From: Flavobacteriales bacterium
Lineage (GTDB): Bacteria; Bacteroidota; Bacteroidia; Flavobacteriales; CAJXXR01
Length of the DNA stretch: 64,000 nucleotides
Direction: 5' to 3'
Assembly: GCA_965243605.1 (NCBI GenBank)
Contig: CBDEVQ010000092.1
Coordinates: forward strand, 48,208 to 112,207
Position numbers and translations under genes: made by a program. Position 1 is the stretch's first letter. Each line of letters opens with the position of its first letter. Shown here piece by piece: positions 6,408 through 57,507 of this stretch. Below the pieces are notes generated by a model that saw only the letters and a program-made list of their open reading frames with translations, did no database searches and was not told the DNA's origin.

Positions 6408-6524
6408 TTAAGCGGCAATGTAAAATCCGGAGAAATAAATCTTTCAAACTTCCCAAGTGGACTGTATAGCATTCAATTTAAAGATGCCACTATGGTTAGA
6501 TCTATAAAATTTGTATTAAATTAA
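6408..6524 (+). pseudogene. Orphan 3' fragment of an array gene (last ~38 codons of the alpha-type CTD plus stop) at the left edge of the array
   Basis: It reads LSGNVKSGEINLSNFPSGLYSIQFKDATMVRSIKFVLN*. The canonical 17-nt spacer ttaacaattagagcgtt and the A1 ATG follow. No upstream coding part and no start codon are present. Confidence 0.85.
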
Positions 6525-6541
6525 TTAACAATTAGAGCGTT

Positions 6542-8461
6542 ATGAGAATACTAACCATATTAAGTTATTTATTTTATTTATGTATTAGTTTGAATGGGAA
6601 TAGCCAAACCATCACGGTTCAGAATTTAGACGATTCAGGAATAGGTTCTCTGCGTAATGCTATTTCTAATGCCAATTCAGGCGATACCATACGTTTTAAT
6701 CCCATGTTAATTGCTCAAGGGAGTGATACTTTGGTACTAGATACAGTAATAAATATTGATAAAGATTTGGTAATAAATGGACTTTATGATAGCGAGGATA
6801 CCTTGTTTTTGTCTTCTAAAACAAATAGAAGTATATTCTTTGTTGATTCTGTAGATAATATATTGCTTGATAGCCTTTGTTTGTTAGCAGATACAAGTGA
6901 TAATATTGACCCCTATATCACTTATTTTGTTTATTCAAATGTATTAGTTTCAAATTGTTTTTTTAAAGGGTACACCAAAATTATTTTACATACTTGGCAG
7001 TCAAATTTGACCATTGTTGGTTCGATGGTTTTGGGATTACATTCTCCACAATCATTTCCTAAAATAAGTTATGCAACGCAAGGTGATATTTTTAGAGAAT
7101 GTAATATAACGAATTCGGTGTTTAAGTTAGAAAATTCAAATAGCACAGGTTTCTATATAGAAACTGGAGGTAATAAGATAAATAACAACATACATATAGA
7201 AAATTCTTACTTTTCAAATTTCAAAACACTAATTTATGGTCTTAATACTGTAAATGTTGTAAAGAATACATTTAATAATTCTTTGATTAAGACAGGTGAA
7301 CCCAATAGAGGTTTTTATACCAGAAATATTGCATTAACTGTAAAAGCTTCAACCTTTACTATTACAGATAGTAACAGAGTACAAAATACAATTTTAAGCA
7401 TAGGAACGCCTTACGGACCTATTGAGCCAATTCCACTAGATACTATTAAGTTAAATTTTACAAATTGTACATTTAATGGAGGTCTTTATGAAGATACTCT
7501 TTATGGGAGCTTTACTGATAGTAATTATTTGGATTACTTCGGTCCAGACTTAGATGAGCTAAAAATAACAAGTTGTATTTTTAATGATATTAACGGATTT
7601 AACGAATTGCCTATAGACTCTTCAGGAGGATATAATCTATTTAGTTTTCCTCAAAATATTGGCTTAGATTCAACAGACCAAACCAATGTTCTGGTGTCTG
7701 ATATTAACTTGGGACCCTTACAAAACAATGGAGGGTATACACCTACACATCTACCAAACTACCAATCTTTAGCGTTTAATTCGGGTAATCCGAACGATAC
7801 AAGCTCAGCCCAAAACGGAGCCATCATACAACGCCGAGATATTGGGTCAGCAGAAATACAAGCTGTCCTAACCATAGACACAACAGAGCATTGCGGTACA
7901 TCCTATAATTGGCGAGCAGACACCCTTACCGAAACAGATATTCATTTTGATTTTGAAGAATCTACTACAGGAGGGCACGATAGTGTTTTTGCTTTAGATT
8001 TAACCTTAGATTACATGGATGCTCTAGCTATTAGCGATGGTGGAGCCTTACAAGCCAATATCACTGATGCAAGCTATCAATGGATAGATTGTTCAACCCA
8101 TTTACCATTGTTTGGCGAAACCAACCAAACCCTTACACCCAATATAGCGGGAACCTATGCCGTTGTTGTTTCCAATGGAATTTGTACCGATACTTCGGCC
8201 TGTGTATTTATCGATAATTTGAGTGTAGAAGAGCATAACCCAAACCTTCCTCTTATTAGAGTAACCAACCAAACCATATTCTTTAATCCAAGCAATTCTC
8301 TATTATCCCATTATATAATTTACAATAGTCAAGGACAATCCGTTGTAAGCGGCAACGTAAAATCTGGAGAAATAAACCTTTCAAACTTCCCAAGTGGACT
8401 GTATAGCATTCAATTTAAAGATGCCACTATGGTTAGATCTATAAAATTTGTATTAAATTAA
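6542..8461 (+). CDS. Array copy A1: T9SS-targeted right-handed beta-helix family protein (signal a, core class I, hybrid CTD)
   Basis: 639 aa. Signal peptide MRILTILSYLFYLCISLNGNSQ. N-cap TITVQNLDDSGIGSLRNAISNANSGDTIRFNP (CSLREA-like). C-cap LGPLQNNGGYTPTHL...QRRDIGSAEIQ (choice-of-anchor-Q-like). The first half of the CTD is unique (HNPNLPLIRVTNQTIFF...); the second half is alpha type. The core is unique apart from a tail shared with A6 (PLDT(I/L)KLNFTNCTFNGGLYEDTLYG). Confidence 0.9.
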   Translation: MRILTILSYLFYLCISLNGNSQTITVQNLDDSGIGSLRNAISNANSGDTIRFNPMLIAQGSDTLVLDTVINIDKDLVINGLYDSEDTLFLSSKTNRSIFFVDSVDNILLDSLCLLADTSDNIDPYITYFVYSNVLVSNCFFKGYTKIILHTWQSNLTIVGSMVLGLHSPQSFPKISYATQGDIFRECNITNSVFKLENSNSTGFYIETGGNKINNNIHIENSYFSNFKTLIYGLNTVNVVKNTFNNSLIKTGEPNRGFYTRNIALTVKASTFTITDSNRVQNTILSIGTPYGPIEPIPLDTIKLNFTNCTFNGGLYEDTLYGSFTDSNYLDYFGPDLDELKITSCIFNDINGFNELPIDSSGGYNLFSFPQNIGLDSTDQTNVLVSDINLGPLQNNGGYTPTHLPNYQSLAFNSGNPNDTSSAQNGAIIQRRDIGSAEIQAVLTIDTTEHCGTSYNWRADTLTETDIHFDFEESTTGGHDSVFALDLTLDYMDALAISDGGALQANITDASYQWIDCSTHLPLFGETNQTLTPNIAGTYAVVVSNGICTDTSACVFIDNLSVEEHNPNLPLIRVTNQTIFFNPSNSLLSHYIIYNSQGQSVVSGNVKSGEINLSNFPSGLYSIQFKDATMVRSIKFVLN

Positions 8462-8478
8462 TTAACAATTAGAGCGTT

Positions 8479-10371
8479 ATGAGAATACTAACCATATTAA
8501 GTTATTTATTTTGTTTATGTATTAGTTTGAATGGGAATAGCCAAACTATAACTGTTCAGAATTTAGACGATTCAGGGATTGGTTCTCTGCGTGATGCTAT
8601 TTCTAATGCCAATTCAGGCGATACCATACGTTTTAATCCAATGTTACTATCACAAGGGAGTGATACCTTGGTGTTAGATACAGTAATTAATATTGATAAA
8701 GATTTAGTGATAAAAGGGCTTTATGATGATGAGGATACGTTGTTTTTGTCTGTGTCAGACAATCAGTCATTCTTCCTTGTTGATACTGTTGAAAGTTTTA
8801 CGCTTGATAGTGTTGTTTTAATATCGTCAATAAATAATACTCCAAGTACATGGATTATAGTTTTTGAATCATTAATTAATATAGATAATTCTATTTTTAG
8901 AGGAGCTAAAAGTACTGTATTGATGTTATCAGAATCTCCATTTATAATACAAAATAGTTTTTTTTCTATAAACAATTTTCTAGTTTTTGGAGGAACACCC
9001 AATATTATTACTTGCGGATTTAATACAGATAAATTAAGGACAATAAGAATAGAATCTACTATATTTCAGGTTATTGGTGCTTCAAATGGACTTGATGTGA
9101 GATTTACAAGTAATCAGGATAGTAATAATGTAATAATTAGGAATTGTTATCTTAATAATTTTAGGAGTTTGTTATTTGGCCATTTTCGTGTAGAAATAAT
9201 AAATAGTACTTTTAATAACTCTCCTTTTGATATTGGTCACCCAATGATATCAGGGGGTATTCCTGAAAGAAATGCTTTTATTTTGGCTAACACTTCGACT
9301 TTTTCTTTAACTGATATTGGATATTTACAAAACCCTATCTCTTGTATAGGTTCACCAACAAACCCTTTTGATCCACCTCCTTCAGATATATTTGAATTAC
9401 AATTTAATAATTGCACTTTCAATGGAGGAACTTATGACAGCAATTCCTATGAAGATTACTTCGGTCCAGACTTAGATGAGCTAAAAATAACAAGTTGTAT
9501 TTTTAATGATATTAACGGATTTAACGAATTGCCTATAGACTCATCAGGAGGCTATAACTTATTTAGTTTTCCTCAAAGCATAGGTTTAGATTCAACAGAC
9601 CAAACCAATGTTCTGGTGTCTGATGTCAACTTAGGACCATTACAAAACAACGGAGGGTTTACACCAATACATCTACCAAACTACCAATCTTTAGCGTTTA
9701 ATTCGGGTAATCCGAACGATACAAGCTCTGCTCAAAATGGAGCCATTATACAACGCCGAGATATTGGGGCAGCAGAAATACAAGCTGTCCTAACCATAGA
9801 CACAACAGAGTATTGCGGTACATCCTATAATTGGCGAGCAGACACCCTTACTGAAACAGATATTCATTTTGATATTGAAGAGTCTACCAATGGTGGATAC
9901 GATAGTGTTTTTGCTTTAGATTTAACCTTAGATTACATGGATGCTCTAGCCATTAGCGATGGTGGAGCCTTACAAGCCAATATTTCTGATGCAACATACC
10001 AATGGATGGATTGTTCAACCCATTTACCATTGTTTGGCGAAACCAACCAAACCTTTACACCCAGTATAGCGGGAACCTATGCGGTTGTTGTTTCCAATGG
10101 AATTTGTACCGATACTTCGGCCTGTGTATTTATCGATAATTTGAGTGTAGAAGAGCAGGTGCAATCCTTTGTATTTGTAAAGAATCATGTTTTGTATTTT
10201 AACGGGTTAGAAAATGCAGAGTTTAACATCTATAATAGCCTTGGGCAGAATATTTTAAGCGGCAATGTAAAATCCGGAGAAATAGACCTTTCAAACTTCC
10301 CAAGTGGACTGTATAGCATTCAATTTAAAGATGCCACTATGGTTAGATCTATAAAATTTGTATTAAATTAA
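8479..10371 (+). CDS. Array copy A2 (signal a, core class II, CTD alpha)
   Basis: 630 aa with the same architecture. The core is homologous to B4 (both begin LSVSDNQSFFLVDTVESFTLDS). The last ~305 aa are identical to A3. Confidence 0.9.
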   Translation: MRILTILSYLFCLCISLNGNSQTITVQNLDDSGIGSLRDAISNANSGDTIRFNPMLLSQGSDTLVLDTVINIDKDLVIKGLYDDEDTLFLSVSDNQSFFLVDTVESFTLDSVVLISSINNTPSTWIIVFESLINIDNSIFRGAKSTVLMLSESPFIIQNSFFSINNFLVFGGTPNIITCGFNTDKLRTIRIESTIFQVIGASNGLDVRFTSNQDSNNVIIRNCYLNNFRSLLFGHFRVEIINSTFNNSPFDIGHPMISGGIPERNAFILANTSTFSLTDIGYLQNPISCIGSPTNPFDPPPSDIFELQFNNCTFNGGTYDSNSYEDYFGPDLDELKITSCIFNDINGFNELPIDSSGGYNLFSFPQSIGLDSTDQTNVLVSDVNLGPLQNNGGFTPIHLPNYQSLAFNSGNPNDTSSAQNGAIIQRRDIGAAEIQAVLTIDTTEYCGTSYNWRADTLTETDIHFDIEESTNGGYDSVFALDLTLDYMDALAISDGGALQANISDATYQWMDCSTHLPLFGETNQTFTPSIAGTYAVVVSNGICTDTSACVFIDNLSVEEQVQSFVFVKNHVLYFNGLENAEFNIYNSLGQNILSGNVKSGEIDLSNFPSGLYSIQFKDATMVRSIKFVLN

Positions 10372-10388
10372 TTAACAATTAGAGCGTT

Positions 10389-12269
10389 ATGAGAATACTA
10401 ACCATATTAAGTTATTTATTTTGTTTATGTATTAGTTTGAATGGGAATAGCCAAACTATAACTGTTCAGAATTTAGACGATTCTGGGGTTGGCTCTTTAC
10501 GTGATGCTATTTCTAATGCCAATTCAGGTGATACCATCCGTTTTAATCCAATGTTACTATCACAAGGGAGTGATACCTTGGTGTTAGATACAGTAATTAA
10601 TATTGATAAAGATTTAGTGATAAAAGGGCTTTATGATGATGAGGATACGTTGTTTTTGTCTTCTTTGGAGAATAGACGTTTGTTCCATTTTGATACAGTA
10701 GATTATGTACTACTTGATAGCCTGTTTTTTGTGGCAGATACAAGTAATGATGCTGATGATTATGTAATTACTTTTCTACATTCAGAGGGTTTTATTTCAA
10801 ATTCTTTTTTTAAGGGATATAATAAAAATGTTTTAGTTTCTTGGCAATCATCTTTGAATCTTTATGGGTGTTTTTTAAACAATGATATAAATACTAATGC
10901 ATCTATTGTCTTTTTGTCAAATGGAGATAATCTTTGCATTTTGAACATTACGTCTACATATATACAAAATAACGGTGTTGGATATGATTTTGATATAAGA
11001 TTAGCAGGAAATAAAAATAATAATCACATTATTATAGAAGATTCGTACTTTAAAAATTCTAAAAGTTTATATTTCGGTCATTTATTTACCGAAATAAGGC
11101 GTAGTACGTTTGAAAATTCAACAATTGATATTGGTCATGAATCTGTTATTGGTGGAACGAGCGAAAGAGACATTACATTGAATGTCATGAGCTCTACATT
11201 TTCTATTTCTGATTCTACAGATAATAAAAATAGTATATCTTGTATAGGTACACCTTATGGACCAATAGAATCTCCTCCTTTAGATTTTTTTCAGTTACAA
11301 TTTAAAAATTGCACATTTAGCGGAGGTGTATATGATAGTGCTTCATACGAAGATTATTTCGGCCCCGATTTAGATGAACTAAAAATAACAAGTTGCATAT
11401 TCAATGATATTAACGGATTTAACGAATTGCCTATAGACTCATCAGGAGGCTATAACTTATTTAGTTTTCCTCAAAGCATAGGTTTAGATTCAACAGACCA
11501 AACCAATGTTCTGGTGTCTGATGTCAACTTAGGACCATTACAAAACAACGGAGGGTTTACACCAATACATCTACCAAACTACCAATCTTTAGCGTTTAAT
11601 TCGGGTAATCCGAACGATACAAGCTCTGCTCAAAATGGAGCCATTATACAACGCCGAGATATTGGGGCAGCAGAAATACAAGCTGTCCTAACCATAGACA
11701 CAACAGAGTATTGCGGTACATCCTATAATTGGCGAGCAGACACCCTTACTGAAACAGATATTCATTTTGATATTGAAGAGTCTACCAATGGTGGATACGA
11801 TAGTGTTTTTGCTTTAGATTTAACCTTAGATTACATGGATGCTCTAGCCATTAGCGATGGTGGAGCCTTACAAGCCAATATTTCTGATGCAACATACCAA
11901 TGGATGGATTGTTCAACCCATTTACCATTGTTTGGCGAAACCAACCAAACCTTTACACCCAGTATAGCGGGAACCTATGCGGTTGTTGTTTCCAATGGAA
12001 TTTGTACCGATACTTCGGCCTGTGTATTTATCGATAATTTGAGTGTAGAAGAGCAGGTGCAATCCTTTGTATTTGTAAAGAATCATGTTTTGTATTTTAA
12101 CGGGTTAGAAAATGCAGAGTTTAACATCTATAATAGCCTTGGGCAGAATATTTTAAGCGGCAATGTAAAATCCGGAGAAATAGACCTTTCAAACTTCCCA
12201 AGTGGACTGTATAGCATTCAATTTAAAGATGCCACTATGGTTAGATCTATAAAATTTGTATTAAATTAA
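10389..12269 (+). CDS. Array copy A3 (signal a, core class III, CTD alpha)
   Basis: 626 aa. The core is homologous to B5 (SSLENR..F..DTVDY.LLDSL...IRLAGNKNNN). The C-terminal half is identical to A2. Confidence 0.9.
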   Translation: MRILTILSYLFCLCISLNGNSQTITVQNLDDSGVGSLRDAISNANSGDTIRFNPMLLSQGSDTLVLDTVINIDKDLVIKGLYDDEDTLFLSSLENRRLFHFDTVDYVLLDSLFFVADTSNDADDYVITFLHSEGFISNSFFKGYNKNVLVSWQSSLNLYGCFLNNDINTNASIVFLSNGDNLCILNITSTYIQNNGVGYDFDIRLAGNKNNNHIIIEDSYFKNSKSLYFGHLFTEIRRSTFENSTIDIGHESVIGGTSERDITLNVMSSTFSISDSTDNKNSISCIGTPYGPIESPPLDFFQLQFKNCTFSGGVYDSASYEDYFGPDLDELKITSCIFNDINGFNELPIDSSGGYNLFSFPQSIGLDSTDQTNVLVSDVNLGPLQNNGGFTPIHLPNYQSLAFNSGNPNDTSSAQNGAIIQRRDIGAAEIQAVLTIDTTEYCGTSYNWRADTLTETDIHFDIEESTNGGYDSVFALDLTLDYMDALAISDGGALQANISDATYQWMDCSTHLPLFGETNQTFTPSIAGTYAVVVSNGICTDTSACVFIDNLSVEEQVQSFVFVKNHVLYFNGLENAEFNIYNSLGQNILSGNVKSGEIDLSNFPSGLYSIQFKDATMVRSIKFVLN

Positions 12270-12286
12270 TTAACAATTAGAGCGTT

Positions 12287-14182
12287 ATGAGAATACTAAC
12301 CATATTAAGTTATTTATTTTGTTTATGTATTAGTTTGAATGGGAATAGCCAAACCATCACGGTTCAGAATTTAGACGATTCTGGGGTTGGCTCTTTACGT
12401 GATGCTATTTCTAATGCCAATTCAGGTGATACCATCCGTTTTAACCCTATGTTACTTTCACAGGGAAGTGATACTTTAGTATTAGATACAGTGATTAATA
12501 TTGATAAAGATTTAGTGATAAAAGGGCTTTATGATAGCGAGGATACCTTGTTTTTAACTACAGGAGACAATCAATCATTTTTTTATATTGATTCAGTAGA
12601 AAATCTAATTATTGATAATTTGGTATTTATATTTGATTCTATATTTTTAATTAGTAATCATGATTTTATAAATGCGCGGAATTCAAAAGTAAAATTATCA
12701 AATTCAATATTTAGAGGGAATAGAGATGAAATTTTGTCTTTTTGGCAATCTTCATTAGAAATATTGAATTGTAAATTCAATATTAAAATGACTGAACAAT
12801 ATAGTTCATTAATAGTTTATTTGACAAATGGCGAAAGTTATAGAGAATTTAAGATAATAAACTCTTTATTAAAATTAAATGGTGAAATATTAGGGAATAG
12901 TATTGATATAAGACTTAAGGGAAATAAAAATAATAATCATTTTATCATAGAAAATTCATACTTTAAAAATTCTAAAAGTTTATATTTCGGTCATTTAATA
13001 ATAAATATCAATCAATGTACATTCGAAAATTCACCTATTGATATTGGGCATGGACTTATGGGAGGTGTTACAACTGAAAGAGATATTACATTGAATGCAA
13101 TGAGTTCGACATTTTCTATTTCTGATTCGACAGATAACCAAAATAGTATCTCTTGTATAGGTACACCTTATGGACCAATAGAATCTCCTCCTTTAGATTT
13201 TTTTCAGTTACAATTTAAAAATTGCACATTTAGCGGAGGTGTATATGATAGTGCTTCATACGAAGATTATTTCGGTCCCGATTTAGATGAACTAAAAATA
13301 ACAAGTTGTATTTTTAATGATATTAATGGCTTTAATGAATTACCTATTGACTCTTCAGGTGGATATAACTTATTTAGTTTTCCTCAAAGCATAGGATTAG
13401 ATTCAACAGACCAAGCTAATGTTCTGGTGTCTGATATTAACTTGGGGCCCTTACAAAACAATGGAGGGTATACACCTACACATCTACCAAACTACCAATC
13501 TTTAGCGTTTAATTCGGGTAATCCGAACGACACAAGCTTTGCCCAAAACGGAACCATCATACAACGCCGAGATATAGGAGCTGCAGAAATACAAGCTGTC
13601 CTAACCATAGACACAACAGACTATTGCGGTACATTCTATAATTGGCGAGCAGACACCCTTACCGAAACAGATATTCATTTTGATATTGAAGAATCTACTA
13701 CAGGAGGGTACGATAGTGTTTTTGCCATAGATTTAACCTTAGATTATATTGATGCTATAGCCATAAGTGATGGAGGCGAATTAACAGCCAATAGTTCTGA
13801 TGCGACCTACCAATGGATGGATTGTTCAACCCATTTACCATTGTTTGGTGAAACTAACCAAACCCTTACACCCAGTATAGCGGGAACCTATGCGGTTGTT
13901 GTTTCCAATGGAATTTGTACCGATACTTCGGCCTGTGTATTTATCGATAATTTGAGTGTAGAAGAGCAGGTGCAATCCTTTGTATTTGTAAAGAATCATG
14001 TTTTGTATTTTAACGGGTTAGAAAATGCAGAGTTTAACATCTATAATAGCCTTGGGCAGAATATTTTAAGCGGCAATGTAAAATCCGGAGAAATAGACCT
14101 TTCAAACTTCCCAAGTGGACTGTATAGCATTCAATTTAAAAATGCCACTATGGTTAGATCTATAAAATTTGTATTAAATTAA
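12287..14182 (+). CDS. Array copy A4 (signal a, chimeric core IV/III, CTD alpha)
   Basis: 631 aa. The first part of the core resembles A5/B1 (RNSKVKLSNSIFRGNRDEILSFWQSSLEILNCKF). The second part resembles A3 (NKNNNHFIIENSYFKNSKSLYFGH...SSTFSISDSTDNQNSISCIGTPYGPIESPPLDFFQLQFKNCTFSGGVYDSASYE). Confidence 0.9.
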   Translation: MRILTILSYLFCLCISLNGNSQTITVQNLDDSGVGSLRDAISNANSGDTIRFNPMLLSQGSDTLVLDTVINIDKDLVIKGLYDSEDTLFLTTGDNQSFFYIDSVENLIIDNLVFIFDSIFLISNHDFINARNSKVKLSNSIFRGNRDEILSFWQSSLEILNCKFNIKMTEQYSSLIVYLTNGESYREFKIINSLLKLNGEILGNSIDIRLKGNKNNNHFIIENSYFKNSKSLYFGHLIININQCTFENSPIDIGHGLMGGVTTERDITLNAMSSTFSISDSTDNQNSISCIGTPYGPIESPPLDFFQLQFKNCTFSGGVYDSASYEDYFGPDLDELKITSCIFNDINGFNELPIDSSGGYNLFSFPQSIGLDSTDQANVLVSDINLGPLQNNGGYTPTHLPNYQSLAFNSGNPNDTSFAQNGTIIQRRDIGAAEIQAVLTIDTTDYCGTFYNWRADTLTETDIHFDIEESTTGGYDSVFAIDLTLDYIDAIAISDGGELTANSSDATYQWMDCSTHLPLFGETNQTLTPSIAGTYAVVVSNGICTDTSACVFIDNLSVEEQVQSFVFVKNHVLYFNGLENAEFNIYNSLGQNILSGNVKSGEIDLSNFPSGLYSIQFKNATMVRSIKFVLN

Positions 14183-14199
14183 TTAACAATTAGAGCGTT

Positions 14200-16113
14200 A
14201 TGAGAATACTAACCATAATAAGTTATTTATTTTATTTATGTATTAGTTTGAATGGGAATAGCCAAACCATCACGGTTCAGAATTTAGACGATTCTGGGGT
14301 TGGTTCTTTACGCGATGCTATTTCTAATGCCAATTCAGGCGATACCATCCGTTTTAACCCTATGTTAATTGCTCAAGGGAGTGATACTTTAGTATTAGAT
14401 ACAGTAATAAGTATTGACAAAGATTTAGTGATAAAAGGGCTTTATGATAGCGAGGATACCTTGTTTATGTCTGCATTAGATAATCAGAATTTGTTTTTCA
14501 TAGATAGTGTTGAAAGTATGGTTATGGATAGTTTAGTTTATCATATTGGCTTAATAAATACTTTTACAAGTTCCGATTTATTTCGGGTGCGTAATTCAAA
14601 CGTTCAAATATATAATTCAATATTTTTGGGGCATAGAGATGAAGTATTATCTTTTTGGCAATCGTCTTTAGAAATTTCAAATTGTAAGTTTATTAGTTTA
14701 GAGAGTTTATATTCGAGTTCTATTATTATATTTTCAACGAATGGGGATGTGCCAAGAGAGCTTAGGGTTATTAATTCTGAATTTGAATTTAATAATACTC
14801 TCACTTCTAAAGTTATTATTAGAACTGGTGGTGATAAAAGTAATAATCTTATTTATTTTAAAAACGCCTATTTTTCTAATATCAAGACTTTGATTTATGG
14901 CCACAATACTATTGATATTTCTAATTGTACTTATGAAAATGCTCATATACAAACAGGTGAACCTTCAGTTGGGTTTGCATTTATTAGAGATATTACATTA
15001 ACTGCAAAATCATCAACTTTTACTATTACTGACACTAATCAAGTCCAAAATACAATTTTATGTATAGGAACACCTTATGGACCTATTGAACCTGTTCCTT
15101 TAGATGTCCTTGAGTTAAATTTAATAAATAGTACGTTTAATGGTGGAATTTACGAAGACGTTATTTATGGAACTGGTTATGATAGTAATTATTTGGATTA
15201 CTTCGGTCCCGATTTAGATGAACTAAAAATAACAAGTTGTATTTTTAATGATATTAATGGCTTTAATGAATTACCTATTGACTCTTCAGGTGGATATAAC
15301 TTATTTAGTTTTCCTCAAAGCATAGGATTAGATTCAACAGACCAAGCTAATGTTCTGGTGTCTGATATTAACTTGGGGCCCTTACAAAACAATGGAGGGT
15401 ATACACCTACACATCTACCAAACTACCAATCTTTAGCGTTTAATTCGGGTAATCCGAACGACACAAGCTTTGCCCAAAACGGAACCATCATACAACGCCG
15501 AGATATAGGAGCTGCAGAAATACAAGCTGTCCTAACCATAGACACAACAGACTATTGCGGTACATTCTATAATTGGCGAGCAGACACCCTTACCGAAACA
15601 GATATTCATTTTGATATTGAAGAATCTACTACAGGAGGGTACGATAGTGTTTTTGCCATAGATTTAACCTTAGATTATATTGATGCTCTAGCCATAAGTG
15701 ATGGAGGCGAATTAACAGCCAATAGTTCTGATGCGACCTACCAATGGATGGATTGTTCAACCCATTTACCATTGTTTGGTGAAACTAACCAAACCCTTAC
15801 ACCCAGTATAGCGGGAACCTATGCGGTTGTTGTTTCCAATGGAATTTGTACCGATACTTCGGCCTGTGTATTTATCGATAATTTGAGTGTAGAAGAGCAG
15901 GTGCAATCCTTTGTATTTGTAAAGAATCATGTTTTGTATTTTAACGGGTTAGAAAATGCAGAGTTTAACATCTATAATAGCCTTGGGCAGAATATTTTAA
16001 GCGGCAATGTAAAATCCGGAGAAATAAACCTTTCAAACTTCCCAAATGGACTGTATAGCATTCAATTTAAAAATGCCACTATGGTTAGATCTATAAAATT
16101 TGTATTAAATTAA
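14200..16113 (+). CDS. Array copy A5 (signal a, core class IV, CTD alpha)
   Basis: 637 aa. The core is homologous to B1/B3. The C-terminal ~305 aa differ from A4 at only ~3 residues. Confidence 0.9.
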   Translation: MRILTIISYLFYLCISLNGNSQTITVQNLDDSGVGSLRDAISNANSGDTIRFNPMLIAQGSDTLVLDTVISIDKDLVIKGLYDSEDTLFMSALDNQNLFFIDSVESMVMDSLVYHIGLINTFTSSDLFRVRNSNVQIYNSIFLGHRDEVLSFWQSSLEISNCKFISLESLYSSSIIIFSTNGDVPRELRVINSEFEFNNTLTSKVIIRTGGDKSNNLIYFKNAYFSNIKTLIYGHNTIDISNCTYENAHIQTGEPSVGFAFIRDITLTAKSSTFTITDTNQVQNTILCIGTPYGPIEPVPLDVLELNLINSTFNGGIYEDVIYGTGYDSNYLDYFGPDLDELKITSCIFNDINGFNELPIDSSGGYNLFSFPQSIGLDSTDQANVLVSDINLGPLQNNGGYTPTHLPNYQSLAFNSGNPNDTSFAQNGTIIQRRDIGAAEIQAVLTIDTTDYCGTFYNWRADTLTETDIHFDIEESTTGGYDSVFAIDLTLDYIDALAISDGGELTANSSDATYQWMDCSTHLPLFGETNQTLTPSIAGTYAVVVSNGICTDTSACVFIDNLSVEEQVQSFVFVKNHVLYFNGLENAEFNIYNSLGQNILSGNVKSGEINLSNFPNGLYSIQFKNATMVRSIKFVLN

Positions 16114-16126
16114 TAATTAAAACGTT

Positions 16127-18040
16127 ATGAGAATACTAACCATATTAAGTTATTTATTTTGTTTAGGTATTAGTTTTAATGGGAATAGCCAAACCATCAC
16201 GGTTCAGAATTTAGACGATTCTGGGGTTGGCTCTTTACGTGATGCTATTTCTAATGCCAATTCAGGCGATACCATCCGTTTTAATCCCATGTTAATTGCT
16301 CAAGGGAGTGATACTTTAGTATTAGATACAGTAATAAGTATTGACAAAGATTTAGTGATAAAAGGGATTTATGATAGCGAGGATACCTTGTTTTTGACTT
16401 GTATTAATAATCAAATGTTTTTTTTAATTGAAAGTATTGAGCTTTCAATGGATAGTATGATTTTTACATCTGCGTATTATAATTATTCAAATACATATTT
16501 TCTATATTTAAGAAACTCTGAAGTAAATATTTTAAATTCAAAATTCTTAGATTTTTCAGAAACGGTTCTATCTTCAGAACAATCGAATTTAACTATTAAT
16601 AATAGTTCATTTTTTTGTGACAGCTTATATTCACATTATCCTTTGGTATACCTAACTCAAGGTGATACGTTAAGAAAACTAAAAATTATAAAGTCAAAGT
16701 TTTTAATAAAGGAAAAGAATACAGTTGGTATAGTAGTTAGAACAGCTGGAAATAAGGAGAATAATAAGGTGATTATTCAAGATTCATATTTTGAAAATTT
16801 TGAAACATTAATATATGGTCATAACACCATAGATATTCAATATTCAACATTTAATAATTCACTAATTAAAACGGGAGAGCCTTATGTGGGGTTTGCATAT
16901 ATTAGAGATATTACATTAACTGTAAAATCTTCAACCTTTGCAATTACAGATTCTAATCAAGTTCAAAATACGATTTTATGTATTGGTACACCTTATGGAC
17001 CTATTGAGCCAGTTCCTTTAGATACTCTGAAGTTAAATTTTACAAATTGTACGTTTAATGGAGGTCTTTATGAAGATACTCTTTATGGGAACTTTACTGA
17101 TAGTAATTATTTGGATTATTTCGGCCCCGATTTAGATGAACTAAAAATAACAAGTTGTATTTTCAATGATATTAACGGATTTAACGAATTGCCTATTGAC
17201 TCTTCAGGTGGATATAACTTATTTAGTTTTCCTCAAAGCATAGGATTAGATTCAACTGACCAAGCTAATGTTCTGGTGTCTGATATTAATTTGGGGCCCT
17301 TACAAAACAATGGAGGGTATACACCTACACATCTACCAAACTACCAATCTTTAGCGTTTAATTCGGGTAATCCTAACGATACCATTTCTGCTCAAAATGG
17401 AGCCATTATACAACGTAGAGATATTGGATCAGCTGAAATACAAGCTATACTTACTGTAGATACTACTGAATATTGTGGCGAATTTTATGATTGGAGAGGG
17501 CAAATGTTAACCGAATCAGCTATCTATTCAGATATAGAAGTATCTACAACAGGATTAGATAGTGTTTTTGCCATAGATTTAACCTTAGAGTATTTAGATG
17601 CCCTAGCCATAAGTGATGGAGGCGAATTAACAGCCAATAGTTCTGATGCGACATACCAATGGATGGATTGTTCAACCTATTTACCATTGTTTGGCGAAAC
17701 CAACCAAACCCTTACACCCAGTATTGCGGGAACCTATGCGGTTGTTGTTTCCAACGGAATTTGTACCGATACTTCGGCCTGTGTATTTATCGATAATTTG
17801 AGTGTAGAAGAGCAAGAAGAATATTATGTTTTTATAAAAGATAATGTACTTCATCTTAATGGGATTAGTAGTATCAAAATAGATTATATTATTTATAACA
17901 GTTTAGGACAAAAGGTACTTCACTCAAATACCTCACAAGAAAAACAAGACCTCTCTTATTTAGAGTCAGGTGTCTATTATATTAGATTAATATCTGATAA
18001 AGTGAATGATAAAAAGTATAATAAATTTATTATTAAATAA
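16127..18040 (+). CDS. Array copy A6, last gene of block A (signal a, core class V, CTD gamma)
   Basis: 637 aa. The core segment TQGDTLRKLKIIKSKFLIKEKNTVGIVVRTAGNKENNKVIIQDSYFENFETLIYGHNT is shared with B6. The CTD ...DLSYLESGVYYIRLISDKVNDKKYNKFIIK differs from alpha and resembles the CTD of the 18529..23949 gene. Confidence 0.9.
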   Translation: MRILTILSYLFCLGISFNGNSQTITVQNLDDSGVGSLRDAISNANSGDTIRFNPMLIAQGSDTLVLDTVISIDKDLVIKGIYDSEDTLFLTCINNQMFFLIESIELSMDSMIFTSAYYNYSNTYFLYLRNSEVNILNSKFLDFSETVLSSEQSNLTINNSSFFCDSLYSHYPLVYLTQGDTLRKLKIIKSKFLIKEKNTVGIVVRTAGNKENNKVIIQDSYFENFETLIYGHNTIDIQYSTFNNSLIKTGEPYVGFAYIRDITLTVKSSTFAITDSNQVQNTILCIGTPYGPIEPVPLDTLKLNFTNCTFNGGLYEDTLYGNFTDSNYLDYFGPDLDELKITSCIFNDINGFNELPIDSSGGYNLFSFPQSIGLDSTDQANVLVSDINLGPLQNNGGYTPTHLPNYQSLAFNSGNPNDTISAQNGAIIQRRDIGSAEIQAILTVDTTEYCGEFYDWRGQMLTESAIYSDIEVSTTGLDSVFAIDLTLEYLDALAISDGGELTANSSDATYQWMDCSTYLPLFGETNQTLTPSIAGTYAVVVSNGICTDTSACVFIDNLSVEEQEEYYVFIKDNVLHLNGISSIKIDYIIYNSLGQKVLHSNTSQEKQDLSYLESGVYYIRLISDKVNDKKYNKFIIK

Positions 18041-18528: not shown

Positions 18529-21500
18529 ATGAAGATCAAAAAAGAACTCATTTTAATGCTATGTTTTGTAATGGGAAGTACCCACAGTATAGCACAAACC
18601 AGTACAACCTTATCCTACAATGGTAGTGATGAAGTGATTAAAAACCCTGAGCGCGGGTTAAGTTATAAAGCAGGGTATGTCGATTTATTTGTCGATGGGT
18701 ATTCTTATGATGGAGCTGTATCCTATCAATGGACTCATGAATTTCCTAACACAGCAAATACAACTCCACCAAGTTTTATTTCACGGTTTAGGAAAGATGC
18801 AGGAAATCACATACAAGAATTGCCAATTGGGTATCAATTTAAATCTACAGCACCTGATGGATTAATTACAGTGGATTCAGATTTAGATTTACCATTACAA
18901 GGGAATGATGAGTTACAAATTAGTTTTCCAAATCCTATGAATTCGAGTTATGATAATAGTTCTGATTTAGTGATAATTCATTATACAGATAATACAGCTA
19001 ACTCTAGAACAGTAAAATATAAAGCATTTCCAAGCGGAGTAGCAGGAAACTATAATGGGGGCTATGGGGATTTTGTTGCACCAGGTAATAATACTATATT
19101 TTCTAAAATAAACATTAGGAATATATCTGGTATTGGTGGACAAATTCAATCATTTTATGTTTTTCAAAATGATAATATTGCTGGTAATGCACCAATAGAA
19201 ATAGACATGAACGAACCGGTTATTTTAGAGTTAAGGTCGGATATCGAAGCATTTACGATAAACCACATAGACCGTTCAGGTGTTTTAGAAAATCGTATAG
19301 AATGTTCATCGCCACATATTGAACAAGCTGCTGACCAATTGAACAATTTTGAGGTTCGTACAGAGTTGTCATATAACCAAATACCTTTAGATATAAGTAC
19401 AGGAAGTTTAAGTACACCGTTTGGGAATCAGATAACGTATAACAACTCTAACCACAGCTTAAATATTACCGATGCTTTTTTTGATGCCCAAACCTATCAG
19501 CAAGCCAGTAATAACAATATTGAGTTAGACCAATGTTATATAGAAGAAAATGGTATCTCTTTAGTTGAACTTGAAGAGTATATTCATTTTTCAGAAGATA
19601 ATATTACGGCATCCTCGCCTCAATACCAATTAGAAACGGCAAGTGTTAATCGTACAAACAATGCGTTTAATCAAATTAAAAATCACGGATTAAAAGCCCA
19701 TCAGGTTACCAATTCAGATTTTAAGATGACGGCAAATAATCATATCTATAATGTGCCAGACGATGAACATTTCACGTATTTACAAAACATAATGGATGAA
19801 ACCAATACTGAAATCTATTCAGGTAATAATAGTCTTATCGCATTAAATACATTGGGGTGGATAAAAGACCAAGAAGATGCTAGTTTATATCGTCTTTCTC
19901 CAACATGGTTAAAAACATCAAAAGATAAGCATTACCTACATTCTGGTCAAGATGCATATTATGGTGAGTTTTTACCCAATGAAGAAAACACTCTACGTTC
20001 TAGCCACCAAAGGTCTTTATTTAGATACTCAGCAGCTGCATCTAACCCGAACTTTACAGGAAACGGATTTAACTCTAGTGGTATTGCAGCAGATGTAAAT
20101 ATTCAGCACTATCAGGAAACAGTCATGAAAAAAGTAAAAAACTATTTTCCTAATAAAAAAATGCTAACCGATATGGTTGTGGCATGGGAACATAAGTTTA
20201 CCTATCCACAAAACGGAGGAACCTATGACGATGCTGGAGAAGATGAGTTTGATGTAAACCCAAACCTTGGATATTACGATGATATGTTTGCCACAACCTA
20301 TGAGTATTTAGGAACTATTTGTGATGAACCACAATTTCATTCAGTTTCAACAGATTTTACATCTGATGGTAAAAAAGATTTATTCGTATTAGGAAAGTAT
20401 AGCGATAATTTTTGGATGCATGCTGATATGCCTTTATACTTTGACGATGCAACTTTTGGACAATCTTTTGGGGCAATGTCTAGCAACTGGACAAATAATG
20501 GACAGTTTGATTACGAAGCTCTTAAGGGAATGCTTACAGCATCGGATGAAGAGCAAAACCCATTTTTAGCAGCAAAAAAATTATTCCGTTTTAACTATAC
20601 CTCTTTTGATGTAACGTATAACAACTCAGAAACAATAGGGAAAAATATTTTTGAATTTGTAGAGCCAAACGGAAATGGAGCGATTGATAAATGGAAAAGC
20701 ACAGCAATAACACAGGCTGATGCTGATCAATACCAATTACCATATTCAACAGGATATTTTACACATGATAATAAATCGGTGTTCGATTATATTCGTGACC
20801 ATTTGGGGTATCGTTTAGAACTGCAGAACTTAGAAACAGAAATACAAGGAAATAATCTAACCGCAAAATTCCATATTCAAAATAAAGGATTTTCAGCACC
20901 TAAAAACCCAAGACAAATTTATGCGGTGCTTTTAGATGAGCAAGGACAACAAGTGCAACAACTACCTGTGAATATAGATGCTAATGAGTGGTTATCATGG
21001 ACAACCGATGCAAATTTAGATATTAAAAAAAATGATATAAACGGAACAAATTATACCGACTATACGTTAGAGGATGATTTTGACCCTATTAATTACAATA
21101 CCCATACAGTTCAAGCGACCTTTGATATGTCAGGTTTAACAACCTATGCTACATATTCTATAGCCTTATGGATGCCAGACCCCTCGGCAGATTTAAACAC
21201 TGCATCTAACCAAGTGGATTATGCTGTTAAATTAGCTAATAGACCAATTTCTATTGGTGCTCGTGGAGAAAATATTGTAGCGAGTTTTAAACGAGGTGTA
21301 AATCAAATGAATTTACCATCTAAATATATCTCTGCAAATACCTTAATAATCAATCAAAATGCTACATGGGCGTCTTTAATAGAACATAATAGAAATATTA
21401 CTATTCCTAATGGAAGAACACTTACCATTACCGGAACCCTTAAAATGCCGCAAGGCACAAAAATTCAAGTTCTAGAGGGAGGAAAACTAATTGTAAACGG

Positions 21501-24034: not shown

Positions 24035-25948
24035 ATGAAATACCTTAATGTGTATAATTTTATATATTGTTTGTTTTTTACGCTCACACTAACAGGGCAA
24101 ACTATTACGGTTCAGAATTTAGATGATTCAGGAATCGGTTCTCTGCGTGATGCTATTGATATAGCAAACTCAGGCGACACTATACGTTTTAATCCAATGT
24201 TACTATCGCAAGGGAGTGATACTTTAGTTCTAGATACTGTTATTAATATTGATAAGGATTTAGTAATAAAAGGGCTTTATGATGATGAGGATACTTTGTT
24301 TTTGTCTGCTATTGATGACCAGATGATGTTTTCTATAGATAGTGTTGAAAATATAGTTATGGATAGTTTGACTTTTGATATTGGCTCAATAAATACTTTT
24401 ACCAATTACGATTTCTTTTGGGTGCGAAATTCAAATATACAAATGTATAATTCAATGTTTTTAGGGTATAGAGATGAGGTTTTAACTTTTTGGCAATCAT
24501 CTTTAGAGATATTAAATTGTAAATTTACTAGTGGAAATAGTTTATTTCCGAGTTCTGTTATTATATTTTTAACAAATGGAGATGTGTCAAGACAGTTTAG
24601 AGTTGTTAATTCTGAGTTTAGATTTAATAATCCTCTTACTTCTGCAGTTATCATTAAAACAGGTGGCAATAAAAATAATAACCATATTTATTTTGAAAAT
24701 AATTATTTCTCTAATATAGGTACTTTAGTTTATGGTCATAATATGATTGATATTTTTAATAGCACCTATGAAAATGCTCATATACAAACAGGAGAGCCTT
24801 CTGTAGGATTTGCTTACATTAGAGACATTACATTAAATATAGAATCTTCAACTTTTACAATTAATGATGTTAATCAAGTACAAAACACCATTTTATGCAT
24901 AGGAACTCCTTATGGACCTATTGAGCCTGTTCCTCTAGATGTTCTTGAGTTAAATTTCACAAATTGTACGTTTAATGGAGGGATATATGTAGATACCGTT
25001 TATAATAACTTTTATGATAGTAATTATTTGGATTATTTCGGTCCAGATTTAGATGAGTTAAAAATAACAAGTTGTATTTTTAATGATATTAACGGATTTA
25101 ATGAATTACCTATAGACACTTCAGGTGGATATAATCTATTTAGTTTCCCTCAAAATATAGGTTTAGATTCTACAGACCAAGCTGATATTTTGGTTTCAGA
25201 TATTAATTTAGGATCATTACAAAACAACGGAGGGTCTACACCTACGCATTTACCAAGTTTTCAATCTTTAGCCTTTAACTCTGGTAATCCAAACGATACA
25301 AGCTCTGCTCAAAATGGGGATATTGTTCAACGTAGAGATATAGGAGCTGCTGAAATACAAGCTGTATTAACAGTTGATACTACAGAATACTGTGGAGAAA
25401 CTTATCAATGGAGAGAAGAAATACTGACGGAATCTAATATTCATTTTGACGTGCAAGAATCAACTACAGGAGGATATGATAGTGTTTTTGTTCTGGACTT
25501 AACTTTAGATTACATTGATGCTATTGCCATTAGTGATGGAGGGGAATTAAAAGCAAATATTTCTGATGCAACGTATCAGTGGATAGACTGCTCAACCAAT
25601 CAACCTTTATTCGGAGAAACGAATCAGGTTTTAACACCAAGTACAGAGGGAATCTATGCTGTTATTGTTTCAAGTTCTATTTGTACAGACACATCAAGTT
25701 GTGTGTATATTAATAATATAGGGTTAGAAGAGCAAGAGAAACACTTTGTATTTGTAAAAGATAAAATACTCTATTTAAATAATGTTAATAGCTATACCGA
25801 ATATAGTGTTTATAATAACTTAGGGCAAATCGTGTTTAAATTCAATACAGTAAAAAAACAACAGGATATAACTCATTTAAATTCAGGTGTGTATTTTATT
25901 GAGTTTAAAGATGAGAATATTCAACCAGTGAAATTTATTTTGGATTAA
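24035..25948 (+). CDS. Array copy B1, first gene of block B (signal b, core class IV, CTD beta)
   Basis: 637 aa. The signal MKYLNVYNFIYCLFFTLTLTGQ is unique to this copy. The core is essentially identical to B3. The CTD is ...YSVYNNLGQIVFKFNTVKKQQDITHLNSGVYFIEFKDENIQPVKFILD. Confidence 0.9.
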   Translation: MKYLNVYNFIYCLFFTLTLTGQTITVQNLDDSGIGSLRDAIDIANSGDTIRFNPMLLSQGSDTLVLDTVINIDKDLVIKGLYDDEDTLFLSAIDDQMMFSIDSVENIVMDSLTFDIGSINTFTNYDFFWVRNSNIQMYNSMFLGYRDEVLTFWQSSLEILNCKFTSGNSLFPSSVIIFLTNGDVSRQFRVVNSEFRFNNPLTSAVIIKTGGNKNNNHIYFENNYFSNIGTLVYGHNMIDIFNSTYENAHIQTGEPSVGFAYIRDITLNIESSTFTINDVNQVQNTILCIGTPYGPIEPVPLDVLELNFTNCTFNGGIYVDTVYNNFYDSNYLDYFGPDLDELKITSCIFNDINGFNELPIDTSGGYNLFSFPQNIGLDSTDQADILVSDINLGSLQNNGGSTPTHLPSFQSLAFNSGNPNDTSSAQNGDIVQRRDIGAAEIQAVLTVDTTEYCGETYQWREEILTESNIHFDVQESTTGGYDSVFVLDLTLDYIDAIAISDGGELKANISDATYQWIDCSTNQPLFGETNQVLTPSTEGIYAVIVSSSICTDTSSCVYINNIGLEEQEKHFVFVKDKILYLNNVNSYTEYSVYNNLGQIVFKFNTVKKQQDITHLNSGVYFIEFKDENIQPVKFILD

Positions 25949-25988
25949 CAACAACTATTCATTTTTAAATTATATAAACCTAAACCGT

Positions 25989-27872: not shown

Positions 27873-27885
27873 TAATTAAAACGTT

Positions 27886-29799: not shown

Positions 29800-29816
29800 T
29801 TAACAATTAGAGCGTT

Positions 29817-31712: not shown

Positions 31713-31752
31713 CAACAACTATTCATTTTTAAATTATATAAACCTAAACCGT

Positions 31753-33657: not shown

Positions 33658-33674
33658 TTAACAATTAGAGCGTT

Positions 33675-57451: not shown

Positions 57452-57507
57452 TGGTATTTCTACCTTTGTTGGTAGAGTAAGTTAAGACAAAACTTATTTT
57501 AGCAGTT

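What the first reader, a model, noticed from the sequence alone, without database searches (positions are those of the whole stretch)
9505..10455. ~950 bp of apparent 100% identity linking A2/A3 and A3/A4 across gene boundaries
The tract from about 9505 through the A2 stop, the spacer and the first ~65 bp of A3 repeats at about 11403..12352 (offset 1898). The last ~305 aa of A2 and A3 are identical, and the DNA lines I compared were identical. Identity starts just after differing codons (gttgtatttttaatgat versus gttgcatattcaatgat). It ends inside the next gene's signal or N-cap (ccaaactataactgtt versus ccaaaccatcacggtt). A4 and A5 show the same near-identity over their 3' halves, with about 3 aa differences. 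The homogenised unit therefore runs from mid-gene to the next gene's 5' end. This phase is expected for unequal crossover or conversion, not for whole-gene duplication.
Basis: seen in the sequence. Interest (0 to 1): 0.6.

Follow-up and report, generated by a model that had tools for sequence, protein, structure and literature searches.

The report
Recent recombination tract in tandem surface-protein genes
Two neighbouring gene junctions in a 12-copy array of secreted beta-helix protein genes from a marine Flavobacteriaceae bacterium share 952 identical bases, the freshest trace of ongoing recombination that keeps gene ends alike while reshuffling variable middles; this kind of process is already well known in bacteria.

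Summary
Window 9505-10456 equals 11403-12354 exactly: 952 bp at offset 1898, running from codon 343 of A2 through the stop and the 17-nt spacer into nt 68 of A3, and likewise from A3 into A4. The other 44 pairs of equivalent junction blocks differ at 13-337 positions. The tract spans 415 consecutive family-polymorphic sites, against a maximum of 51 in 2000 permutations.

It is the youngest of many exchanges among 12 tandem paralogs, arranged as two six-gene arrays. These encode T9SS-secreted beta-helix proteins with a choice-of-anchor Q domain. Each gene has a conserved 5' end, a hypervariable core and a conserved 3' half, so the conserved block straddles every gene junction.

A3 is a chimera. 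It matches A4 at 51 of 53 informative sites just upstream of the breakpoint, then A2 at 58 of 58. I favour gene conversion. An unequal crossover that created A3 remains possible, but needs a later overwrite of about 780 nt.

Exact tracts also link non-adjacent genes and the two arrays. Related genomes carry one paralog per site, and two near-identical strains differ by a swapped core cassette. This is a new member of a known kind and moderately interesting. No read data were available to rule out an assembly artefact.

The parts
9505..10456 (+). Copy 1 of the 952-bp exact tract: A2 codon 343 to the stop, the 17-nt spacer, and A3 nt 1-68
11403..12354 (+). Copy 2 of the 952-bp exact tract: A3 codon 339 to the stop, the 17-nt spacer, and A4 nt 1-68
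11379..11413 (+). Exchange interval inside A3. Upstream of it A3 follows A4 (51 of 53 informative sites); downstream it follows A2 (58 of 58). It contains three synonymous changes at 11396, 11399 and 11402 whose combination is unique to A3.
11238..11362 (+). 125-bp exact A3/A4 match (= 13151-13275) just upstream of the breakpoint. It is part of a ~165-nt A4-like stretch of A3.
6542..18040 (+). Array A, six tandem paralogs: A1 6542-8461, A2 8479-10371, A3 10389-12269, A4 12287-14182, A5 14200-16113, A6 16127-18040. Spacers are 17 nt four times and 13 nt once.
24035..35588 (+). Array B, six tandem paralogs: B1 24035-25948, B2 25989-27872, B3 27886-29799, B4 29817-31712, B5 31753-33657, B6 33675-35588. 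Spacers are 40, 13, 17, 40 and 17 nt.
6408..6541 (+). Remnant upstream of A1: the last 117 nt of a paralog's coding sequence plus the 17-nt spacer, 98.5% identical to the A2, A3, B3 and B5 ends, with no gene body before it. It marks the phase of the repeat unit at the array edge.
18529..23949 (+). 1806-aa T9SS protein with a DUF4832 domain that separates the two arrays
24179..24906 (+). 728-bp exact tract between B1 and B3 (= 28030-28757), followed after one mismatch by 236 more bp. It runs through the hypervariable core, so whole cores are copied too.
13271..14095 (+). A4/A5 near-identical 3' half: 486 bp (13271-13756) and 338 bp (13758-14095) exact, with one mismatch between them (= 15202-16026)
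11953..12444 (+). 492-bp exact inter-array tract: the A3-A4 junction equals the B5-B6 junction (33341-33832)
29375..29850 (+). 476-bp exact tract at the B3-B4 junction, identical to both the A2-A3 junction (9947-10422) and the A3-A4 junction (11845-12320)
25744..26080 (+). 337-bp exact tract: the B1-B2 junction equals the B4-B5 junction (31508-31844). This is the 40-nt-spacer junction type.

Best explanation
The 952-bp identity is a very recent exchange by homologous recombination between repeat units misaligned by one unit in array A. Most likely it is a non-reciprocal gene-conversion tract that copied the '3' half, spacer, next-gene start' block between the A2-A3 and A3-A4 junctions; the direction is unknown. 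It is the newest event in a family that is a recombinational mosaic. The 12 paralogs encode secreted proteins with a signal peptide, a right-handed beta-helix, a choice-of-anchor Q domain, Ig-like domain(s) and a T9SS sorting domain. Their conserved 5' ends and 3' halves supply the homology for strand exchange. Tracts stall at the hypervariable beta-helix core (30-50% nucleotide divergence). Junction blocks are therefore homogenised patchily, and cores are reassorted into new contexts or occasionally copied whole. Shown here: the tract, its significance, the breakpoint in A3, the family-wide mosaic, and cassette replacement between related strains. Inferred: the mechanism (RecA-type conversion), the direction, and any selective benefit from varying a surface or secreted protein repertoire.
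For: The tract is exact and includes the spacer and synonymous sites. Unconverted paralog 3' halves have dS 0.3-1.3 with dN/dS 0.03-0.15, so purifying selection cannot produce zero differences. The permutation test gave 415 concordant polymorphic sites against a maximum of 51. The other junction-block pairs differ at 13-337 positions, and the three most similar pairs are all adjacent junctions. The three-way site pattern switches from A4-like (51 of 53) to A2-like (58 of 58), Fisher p = 7e-31. Each gene's nearest paralog changes repeatedly along its length. Of 30 exact tracts of at least 150 nt, 11 are inter-array and 12 are non-adjacent within an array. Reciprocal crossover between the arrays would delete or duplicate the DUF4832 gene, so these point to conversion. 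Only half of the 1898-bp unit is identical. Independent support for homology-guided replacement comes from strains L001 and L003. Their NorB dS is 0.024, and they differ almost only in gene nt ~260-730 of their single paralog, starting at the conserved/core border. The A4 core is found in L003's gene at species-level divergence (dS 0.20), while its flanks are non-orthologous (dS ~0.77).
Against: No read-level or independent assembly evidence is available for the window's contig. A3's layout, with the 5' part like its downstream neighbour and the 3' part like its upstream neighbour, abutting within 35 nt, is exactly what an unequal crossover produces. Under pure conversion that abutment needs either an older A3/A4 relationship or a breakpoint hotspot. 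Non-reciprocity and direction cannot be established from one genome.
Confidence: 0.6

Rival explanations
1. Unequal crossover (tandem duplication). Misaligned sister chromosomes crossed over between A4 (5' part) and A2 (3' part) at about A3 nt 991-1025, creating A3 as a hybrid gene and adding one unit to the array. Later, about 780 nt of A3 or A4 (gene nt 69 to ~850) was overwritten from another source.
For: A3 has the predicted hybrid order around a single 35-nt interval. The offset equals one repeat unit. Both ends of the predicted 1898-bp duplicated unit are (near-)identical: 952 bp, plus about 165 bp with 4 mismatches. Copy number varies between relatives, which have one paralog where the window has six, and the whole ~30-kb region is absent in L006. 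The most similar junction pairs are neighbours.
Against: The middle ~780 nt of the predicted duplicate is 8% diverged in the 5' conserved part and about 20-40% diverged in the core. No donor for either version of that segment exists in the window. The ~165-nt A3/A4 stretch has 4 mismatches against 0 in 952 bp, so it looks older, unless the three clustered changes arose with the junction. Inter-array and non-adjacent tracts show that conversion operates here anyway.
Confidence: 0.27
2. Assembly or polishing artefact. The two junction blocks are highly similar but not identical in the real genome, and repeat collapse or multi-mapped-read polishing made them identical; or the array order was mis-joined through repeats.
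For: Exact repeats of 300-950 bp are hard to resolve with short reads. The source is an unnamed 135-kb contig, possibly a metagenome-assembled genome. The contig of relative L001 breaks exactly at this gene family.
Against: All 12 ORFs are intact and of consistent length and architecture. The boundaries are sharp and fall at synonymous polymorphisms that other copies share. The same kind of sharply bounded replacement is seen between independently assembled strains L001 and L003, and L003 and L004 come from different samples and pipelines. Background third-position divergence of 20-30% in this block would let reads map uniquely.
Confidence: 0.07
3. Purifying selection alone, or recent whole-gene duplication, explains the identity.
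For: The region encodes the most conserved protein segment of the family.
Against: Third-position diversity in this block averages 0.2-0.4 across paralogs, and dS reaches 1.3. The tract includes the non-coding spacer, starts mid-gene and ends in the next gene. A2 and A3 differ by about 44% in the core.
Confidence: 0.01
4. A dedicated diversity-generating mechanism, either a diversity-generating retroelement (DGR) or a programmed system with one expression site and silent cassettes, drives the pattern.
For: The layout of a variable segment flanked by conserved segments resembles cassette systems.
Against: No reverse transcriptase was found among the ORFs scanned. Core differences involve all base pairs and 120 indel columns, with no adenine bias. 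All 12 copies are complete genes with a start codon, signal peptide and CTD, so there are no silent cassettes.
Confidence: 0.03

Closest known systems
Interparalog (ectopic) gene conversion and concerted evolution in bacterial multigene families, for example Helicobacter babA/babB and Neisseria opa (recalled from general knowledge, not tested here)
   Same: Long identity tracts with abrupt ends that cover synonymous and non-coding sites, mosaic phylogeny along the gene, and dependence on flanking homology.
   Different: Here there are 12 complete tandem genes in two arrays. Homogenisation is patchy: deep allelic classes with dS up to ~1.3 persist in the 'conserved' parts. The homogenised block straddles gene junctions.
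Flavobacterium psychrophilum array of consecutive leucine-rich-repeat protein genes in a ~21-kb region (PMC8400371)
   Same: A Flavobacteriaceae genome with a long run of consecutive paralogous repeat-protein genes, in a repeat-rich region that needed hybrid long-read assembly, with copy number differing between isolates.
   Different: A different protein fold (LRR versus beta-helix with choice-of-anchor Q). That paper reports copy-number differences, not conversion tracts or cassette exchange.
Porphyromonas gingivalis surface virulence factors such as the gingipain and HagA adhesin domains, which show domain rearrangement and allelic exchange (PMC5266723)
   Same: T9SS cargo with a conserved C-terminal domain. 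Variants form a mosaic unrelated to strain phylogeny, attributed by the authors to homologous recombination and gene conversion.
   Different: Those are dispersed genes with modular adhesin domains in a host-associated pathogen. This case is a tandem array in a marine Flavobacteriaceae bacterium with a single variable beta-helix core.
Programmed antigenic-variation cassette systems: Neisseria pilE/pilS, Borrelia vlsE (PMC3828179), Mycoplasma genitalium MgPa/MgPar (PMC2169797)
   Same: Variable segments bounded by conserved sequence that guides segmental conversion and produces mosaic surface proteins.
   Different: Those systems have one expression site and silent, truncated donors. Here every copy is a complete gene, and no evidence of high-frequency switching is available.
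Chlamydia polymorphic membrane protein (Pmp) family
   Same: Distant homologues of these proteins carry the Pmp repeat (PF02415) and Beta_helix (PF13229) domains. Both are paralogous families of beta-helix surface proteins.
   Different: Pmps are autotransporters (type V secretion). These proteins have a T9SS sorting domain, and the window's own proteins do not reach Pfam thresholds for PF02415.

Membership tests
Interparalog gene conversion / concerted evolution | Identity tract significantly longer than expected from the family's polymorphism | tested here: met
   415 consecutive concordant polymorphic sites against a maximum of 51 in 2000 permutations. 0 differences against 13-337 in the other junction-block pairs.
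Interparalog gene conversion / concerted evolution | Homogenisation extends to synonymous and non-coding positions | tested here: met
   The tract includes the 17-nt spacer and all third positions. Elsewhere in the family the same block has dS 0.3-1.3.
Interparalog gene conversion / concerted evolution | Abrupt boundaries with a change of nearest relative across them | tested here: met
   A3 matches A4 at 51 of 53 sites and then A2 at 58 of 58. The nearest-paralog map shows the same along every gene.
Interparalog gene conversion / concerted evolution | Non-reciprocal transfer: the donor is unchanged and there is no copy-number change | not testable with these tools
   This needs the ancestral or a sister-strain array. 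No conspecific genome was found.
Unequal-crossover tandem duplication | Hybrid gene with the 5' part of the downstream neighbour and the 3' part of the upstream neighbour | tested here: met
   A3 is A4-like upstream of 11379-11413 and A2-identical downstream.
Unequal-crossover tandem duplication | Two adjacent copies of a full repeat unit (1898 bp) of equal age | tested here: not met
   Only 952 bp plus about 165 bp are (near-)identical. The intervening ~780 nt is 8-40% diverged.
Programmed antigenic-variation cassette system (pilE/pilS type) | A single expression locus with silent, truncated donor cassettes | tested here: not met
   All 12 copies are complete ORFs of 626-639 aa with a start codon, signal peptide and CTD. 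The only truncated piece is the 134-bp remnant (117 nt of coding sequence plus spacer) at 6408-6541.
Programmed antigenic-variation cassette system (pilE/pilS type) | High-frequency switching within a clonal population | not testable with these tools
   This requires population long-read sequencing.
T9SS type A cargo protein | C-terminal type A sorting domain (TIGR04183) above the curated cut-off | tested here: met
   25.7-31.9 bits against a cut-off of 23. The Pfam PF18962 hit is just below its cut-off. The modelled C-terminus matches the RgpB CTD.
Choice-of-anchor Q / right-handed beta-helix surface protein | NF041518 domain above its cut-off, and a parallel beta-helix fold | tested here: met
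   NF041518 scores 29-30 bits against a cut-off of 25. The AlphaFold model is confident over aa 22-340 as stacked strands. Foldseek hits are tailspikes, PL6 and pectate lyases and VexL, with probability 0.97-1.0 but low TM-scores because the query has several domains.
Diversity-generating retroelement target | A nearby reverse transcriptase with a template repeat, and adenine-specific substitutions | tested here: not met
   No RT domain in the ORFs scanned. The substitution spectrum involves all base pairs, and the core has 120 indel columns.

The most novel reading that the evidence does not exclude
The two arrays may be a standing library of beta-helix 'specificity cassettes' for secreted or surface T9SS proteins. 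The conserved junction blocks would act as portable homology arms that let cores of about 470-770 nt be exchanged among 12 co-oriented complete genes and between strains. The cores themselves would be old polymorphisms shared across species and maintained by balancing selection, for example from phage or grazer pressure or from polysaccharide-ligand diversity. That would be a recombination-based diversification system in free-living marine Flavobacteriaceae, analogous in logic to pathogen antigenic variation but without silent cassettes.
Probability: 0.25. Interest if true: 0.6.

Novelty: new member of a known kind. Interest (0 to 1): 0.36.

Why it matters
The finding documents, at base-pair resolution, how a large tandem family of T9SS-secreted beta-helix proteins evolves in an uncultured marine Flavobacteriaceae lineage. 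Gene ends and junctions are patchily homogenised, and variable cores are reassorted. The same core cassettes turn up in different gene positions in related species, and near-identical strains differ by a cassette swap. There is a practical warning as well: such arrays break or mislead short-read assemblies, and gene trees built from whole genes in this family would be meaningless. Biologically, the locus is a candidate for surface or ligand-specificity variation in free-living marine bacteria. The underlying mechanism, interparalog recombination, is textbook.

Tried and rejected
(1) I looked for the window's own contig or a conspecific assembly to validate the tract. Exact-protein look-ups for A2 and P0001 were not on record. 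The genome-contig scan found only a 32% match over the CTD in Taishania pollutisoli. Both metagenome scans, one with peptide patterns and one with a degenerate DNA pattern for RRDIGAAEIQA, returned nothing. Look-ups for P0012, P0017 and P0047 were also not on record.

(2) Purifying selection as the cause of identity is rejected by synonymous-site diversity and dS.

(3) Simple unequal crossover as the sole event is rejected, because only half of the unit is identical.

(4) A DGR is rejected: no reverse transcriptase, no adenine bias, many indels.

(5) A silent-cassette antigenic-variation system is rejected, because all copies are complete genes.

(6) I searched for a promoter in each junction block using the Bacteroidetes -7 motif TAnnTTTG. 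There was no match within 200 nt upstream of any paralog except B1 at -104, so there is no evidence that junction conservation reflects promoters. With 13-40-nt spacers, co-transcription is more likely.

(7) Positive selection on the core is not supported on average. Pairwise dN/dS is 0.14-0.64, higher than the flanks at 0.03-0.24 but below 1. No site-level tests were run.

(8) I checked whether the three A3-specific changes at the breakpoint occur together in any relative. They do not, although each state exists singly in other paralogs.
Full report
OBSERVATION. An ungapped comparison at offset 1898 shows one uninterrupted identical run, 9505-10456 = 11403-12354 (952 bp). It is the longest exact repeat in the region. 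The run goes from A2 nt 1027 (codon 343) through the A2 stop and the 17-nt spacer to nt 68 of A3, and equally from A3 nt 1015 to nt 68 of A4. The six mismatches that bracket the tract (9498, 9501, 9504; 10457, 10460, 10463) are all third-codon positions. A2 and A3 share an identical C-terminal run of 308 aa, and A4 and A5 differ at 3 of their last 305 aa.

CONTEXT. The window is low-GC (~32%). It carries 12 co-oriented paralogs of 626-639 aa in two six-gene arrays, A1-A6 at 6542-18040 and B1-B6 at 24035-35588. A 1806-aa DUF4832 protein separates the arrays, and a 1961-aa PKD/CUB/GEVED protein lies upstream. Both of these large proteins also have T9SS sorting domains. The paralogs exceed the curated NCBIfam cut-offs for a choice-of-anchor Q domain (aa ~382-435) and a T9SS type A sorting domain. 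Distant homologues carry Chlam_PMP and Beta_helix domains.

An AlphaFold model (mean pLDDT 70) is confident for aa 22-340 as stacked beta strands. Its best PDB matches are right-handed parallel beta-helices: phage tailspikes, PL6 and pectate lyases, and VexL. C-terminal parts match Ig-like domains and the RgpB C-terminal domain. NorB encoded downstream is at most 84% identical to named taxa, all of them marine Flavobacteriaceae, with Cellulophaga closest.

ARCHITECTURE OF VARIATION. The 12 proteins share a conserved N-terminal region (mature aa ~22-90), a hypervariable core (aa ~90-330) and a conserved C-terminal half. In the core, diversity at codon positions 1+2 (0.25-0.5) approaches that at position 3 (0.4-0.6). 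In the conserved parts, diversity at positions 1+2 is mostly 0.02-0.10, while third positions still differ at 0.2-0.4. Pairwise dS between unconverted 3' halves is 0.3-1.3 with dN/dS 0.03-0.15. Core dN/dS is 0.14-0.64.

So the 'conserved' parts are old alleles held by purifying selection, and zero differences over 952 bp cannot be explained by selection. Because the genes are tandem with spacers of 13-40 nt, the conserved 3' half, the spacer and the next gene's conserved 5' end form one continuous homology block of about 1.1 kb that straddles each junction. This is why the identical unit appears 'out of phase' with the genes. The junctions come in three discrete types, with 17-, 13- and 40-nt spacers, and each type occurs in several places. 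Upstream of A1 there is a 134-bp stretch, the last 117 nt of a paralog's coding sequence plus the 17-nt spacer, with no gene body before it (6408-6541). The same phase is therefore visible at the array edge.

SIGNIFICANCE. In a Sawyer-type test, the A2/A3 tract spans 415 consecutive family-polymorphic columns. The longest run for any pair in 2000 column permutations was 51. Among the ten equivalent junction blocks (~950 nt each), the other 44 pairs differ at 13-337 positions. The three most similar pairs are all neighbouring junctions: A2A3/A3A4 with 0 differences, A4A5/A5A6 with 13, and B2B3/B3B4 with 36.

THE EVENT. At sites where A2 and A4 differ, A3 agrees with A4 at 51 of 53 sites in alignment columns 856-1078, and with A2 at 58 of 58 sites from column 1087 to the end (Fisher p = 7e-31). 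The exchange interval is A3 11379-11413, which corresponds to A2 9481-9515. It contains three synonymous changes whose combination is unique to A3. Each individual state does exist in other paralogs.

This hybrid order, with the 5' part like the downstream neighbour and the 3' part like the upstream neighbour, is what an unequal crossover produces. Such an event would, however, leave two identical 1898-bp units. Only 952 bp, plus about 165 bp carrying 4 mismatches, at the two ends of that unit are alike. The ~780 nt between them are 8% diverged in the 5' conserved part and about 20-40% diverged in the core. I therefore prefer a conversion tract laid onto an older A3/A4 relationship (confidence about 0.6) over crossover followed by later overwriting (about 0.27). 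One genome cannot settle the matter.

FAMILY-WIDE MOSAIC. Each gene's nearest paralog changes repeatedly along its length. There are 30 exact tracts of at least 150 nt. Six link adjacent genes, 12 link non-adjacent genes within one array, and 11 link the two arrays about 20 kb apart; 11 of the 30 cross a gene junction. Examples are B1/B3 at 728+236 bp through the core, A3-A4/B5-B6 at 492 bp, A2-A3 and A3-A4 against B3-B4 at 476 bp, A4/A5 at 486+338 bp, and B1-B2/B4-B5 at 337 bp. A reciprocal crossover between the arrays would delete or duplicate the DUF4832 gene, so the inter-array tracts argue for non-reciprocal conversion. Homogenisation is patchy. Several deep allelic classes persist in each segment; for example, the CTDs of B1 and B4 are identical to each other but about 47% different from the A2-A5/B2/B3/B5 class.

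RELATIVES. L001 (ENA) and L003/L004 (JGI and Logan, different samples) come from a sister species. Housekeeping dS against the window is 0.17-0.24. They are syntenic with the window but have a single paralog between DUF4832 and Rrf2, and L001 has one more upstream of DUF4832. L005 has DUF4832 plus one paralog in a different context. In the more distant L006, the homologue of the PKD/CUB protein is followed directly by FUR, Rrf2, ScdA and NorB, so the whole ~30-kb array region is absent. The CTDs of the last genes, A6 and B6, are about 7% different from their positional counterparts in L001 and L003.

Cores behave differently. The A4 core matches the core of L003's single gene (5.8% nucleotide difference, dS 0.20, the species level), although their flanks are non-orthologous (dS ~0.77). 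The A6 core matches L005's (7.1%). L001 and L003 are near-identical strains (NorB dS 0.024). Across 5.5 kb they differ almost only within gene nt ~260-730 of the paralog, beginning exactly at the conserved/core border. Core cassettes are thus old, shared across species, and replaced by recombination in the conserved flanks on short timescales.

RIVALS REJECTED OR DOWN-WEIGHTED. Purifying selection and whole-gene duplication are excluded by the synonymous-site and spacer identity and by the boundaries. A DGR is excluded: no reverse transcriptase in the scanned ORFs, no adenine bias, and many indels. A silent-cassette antigenic-variation system does not fit, because all copies are complete genes. 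An assembly or polishing artefact cannot be excluded without reads. I give it about 0.07, because all ORFs are intact, the boundaries coincide with polymorphisms shared by other copies, and independently assembled relatives show the same kind of sharply bounded replacement.

COMPARISON WITH KNOWN SYSTEMS. This is interparalog recombination with patchy concerted evolution in a tandem bacterial surface- or secreted-protein family, which is a well-known kind of process. Close parallels are the consecutive LRR-protein genes of Flavobacterium psychrophilum, whose copy number varies between isolates (PMC8400371), and the mosaic T9SS surface factors of Porphyromonas gingivalis, attributed to recombination and gene conversion (PMC5266723). 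In logic it resembles the cassette systems of pathogens such as vlsE (PMC3828179) and MgPa/MgPar (PMC2169797), both listed, but it lacks their defining expression-site and silent-donor layout. The protein family itself is narrow: full-length homologues were found on only a handful of contigs.

VERDICT. It is a new member of a known kind and of moderate interest. The most interesting reading still open is that the arrays are a selected library of beta-helix specificity cassettes exchanged through conserved junction 'arms'.

Noticed in passing
window 18098-18387: A 116-nt tandem repeat (2.5 copies, 95% matches) lies in the 488-bp gap between A6 and the DUF4832 gene. The region is conserved in relative L001 (L001 2154-2888, ~89% identical). 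Its function is unknown; it may be regulatory or a terminator region.
   Followed up: partly
L001 8240-8707 versus L003 (its paralog gene at 3304-5205): Two near-identical strains (NorB dS 0.024) differ almost only by a replaced ~470-nt core cassette in their single paralog, with smaller patches at gene nt 20-140 and in the 3' half. The donor is unknown. It is not the other paralog seen in L001, whose core is 39% different.
   Followed up: partly
window 6009-35647 versus L006 320-9019: In the more distant relative L006, the homologue of the PKD/CUB protein (there 2576 aa, with an M4 peptidase N-terminus) is followed directly by FUR and Rrf2. The whole ~30-kb region of array A, DUF4832 and array B is therefore a lineage-specific island.
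   Followed up: partly
window 18529-23949: The DUF4832 T9SS protein is much more diverged from its L001 orthologue (dS 0.59, dN 0.074) than neighbouring housekeeping genes are (dS 0.17-0.24). Its CTD-coding 3' end resembles that of A6 (~70% over 99 nt). L001's contig starts inside another gene that ends with a DUF4832-type CTD, upstream of its first paralog.
   Followed up: partly
A2 aa 345-440 (window ~9511-9798): The most sequence-conserved stretch of the family, around the choice-of-anchor Q domain (ITSCIFNDINGFNELPID...RRDIGAAE), is the least confidently modelled part of the protein, with pLDDT 30-40.
   Followed up: no
window 42025-43513: A ~1.5-kb segment holding most of a 497-aa ORF (42166-43659, no Pfam family) is present in the window but absent from the otherwise collinear L001 and L003. 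L006 has two ORFs without any Pfam family (494 and 490 aa) at the corresponding place.
   Followed up: no
window 57816-58682: An IS3-family transposase ORF (rve, HTH_21) lies downstream of a 1200-aa Beta_helix protein (51173-54775) and an 897-aa protein with no family hit (54782-57475).
   Followed up: no
window 59887-60288 and 60458-60859 (- strand): Two adjacent 133-aa lipocalin-like (PF13648) paralogs form another small tandem duplication.
   Followed up: no
window 24035-24110, 25989-26070, 31753-31830: B1, B2 and B5 carry signal-peptide sequences different from the other nine paralogs (MKYLNVYNF... in B1, MTRVIKSISF... in B2 and B5). The B2/B5 type always follows the 40-nt spacer junction. 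The relatives' genes have this second type of 5' end.
   Followed up: partly
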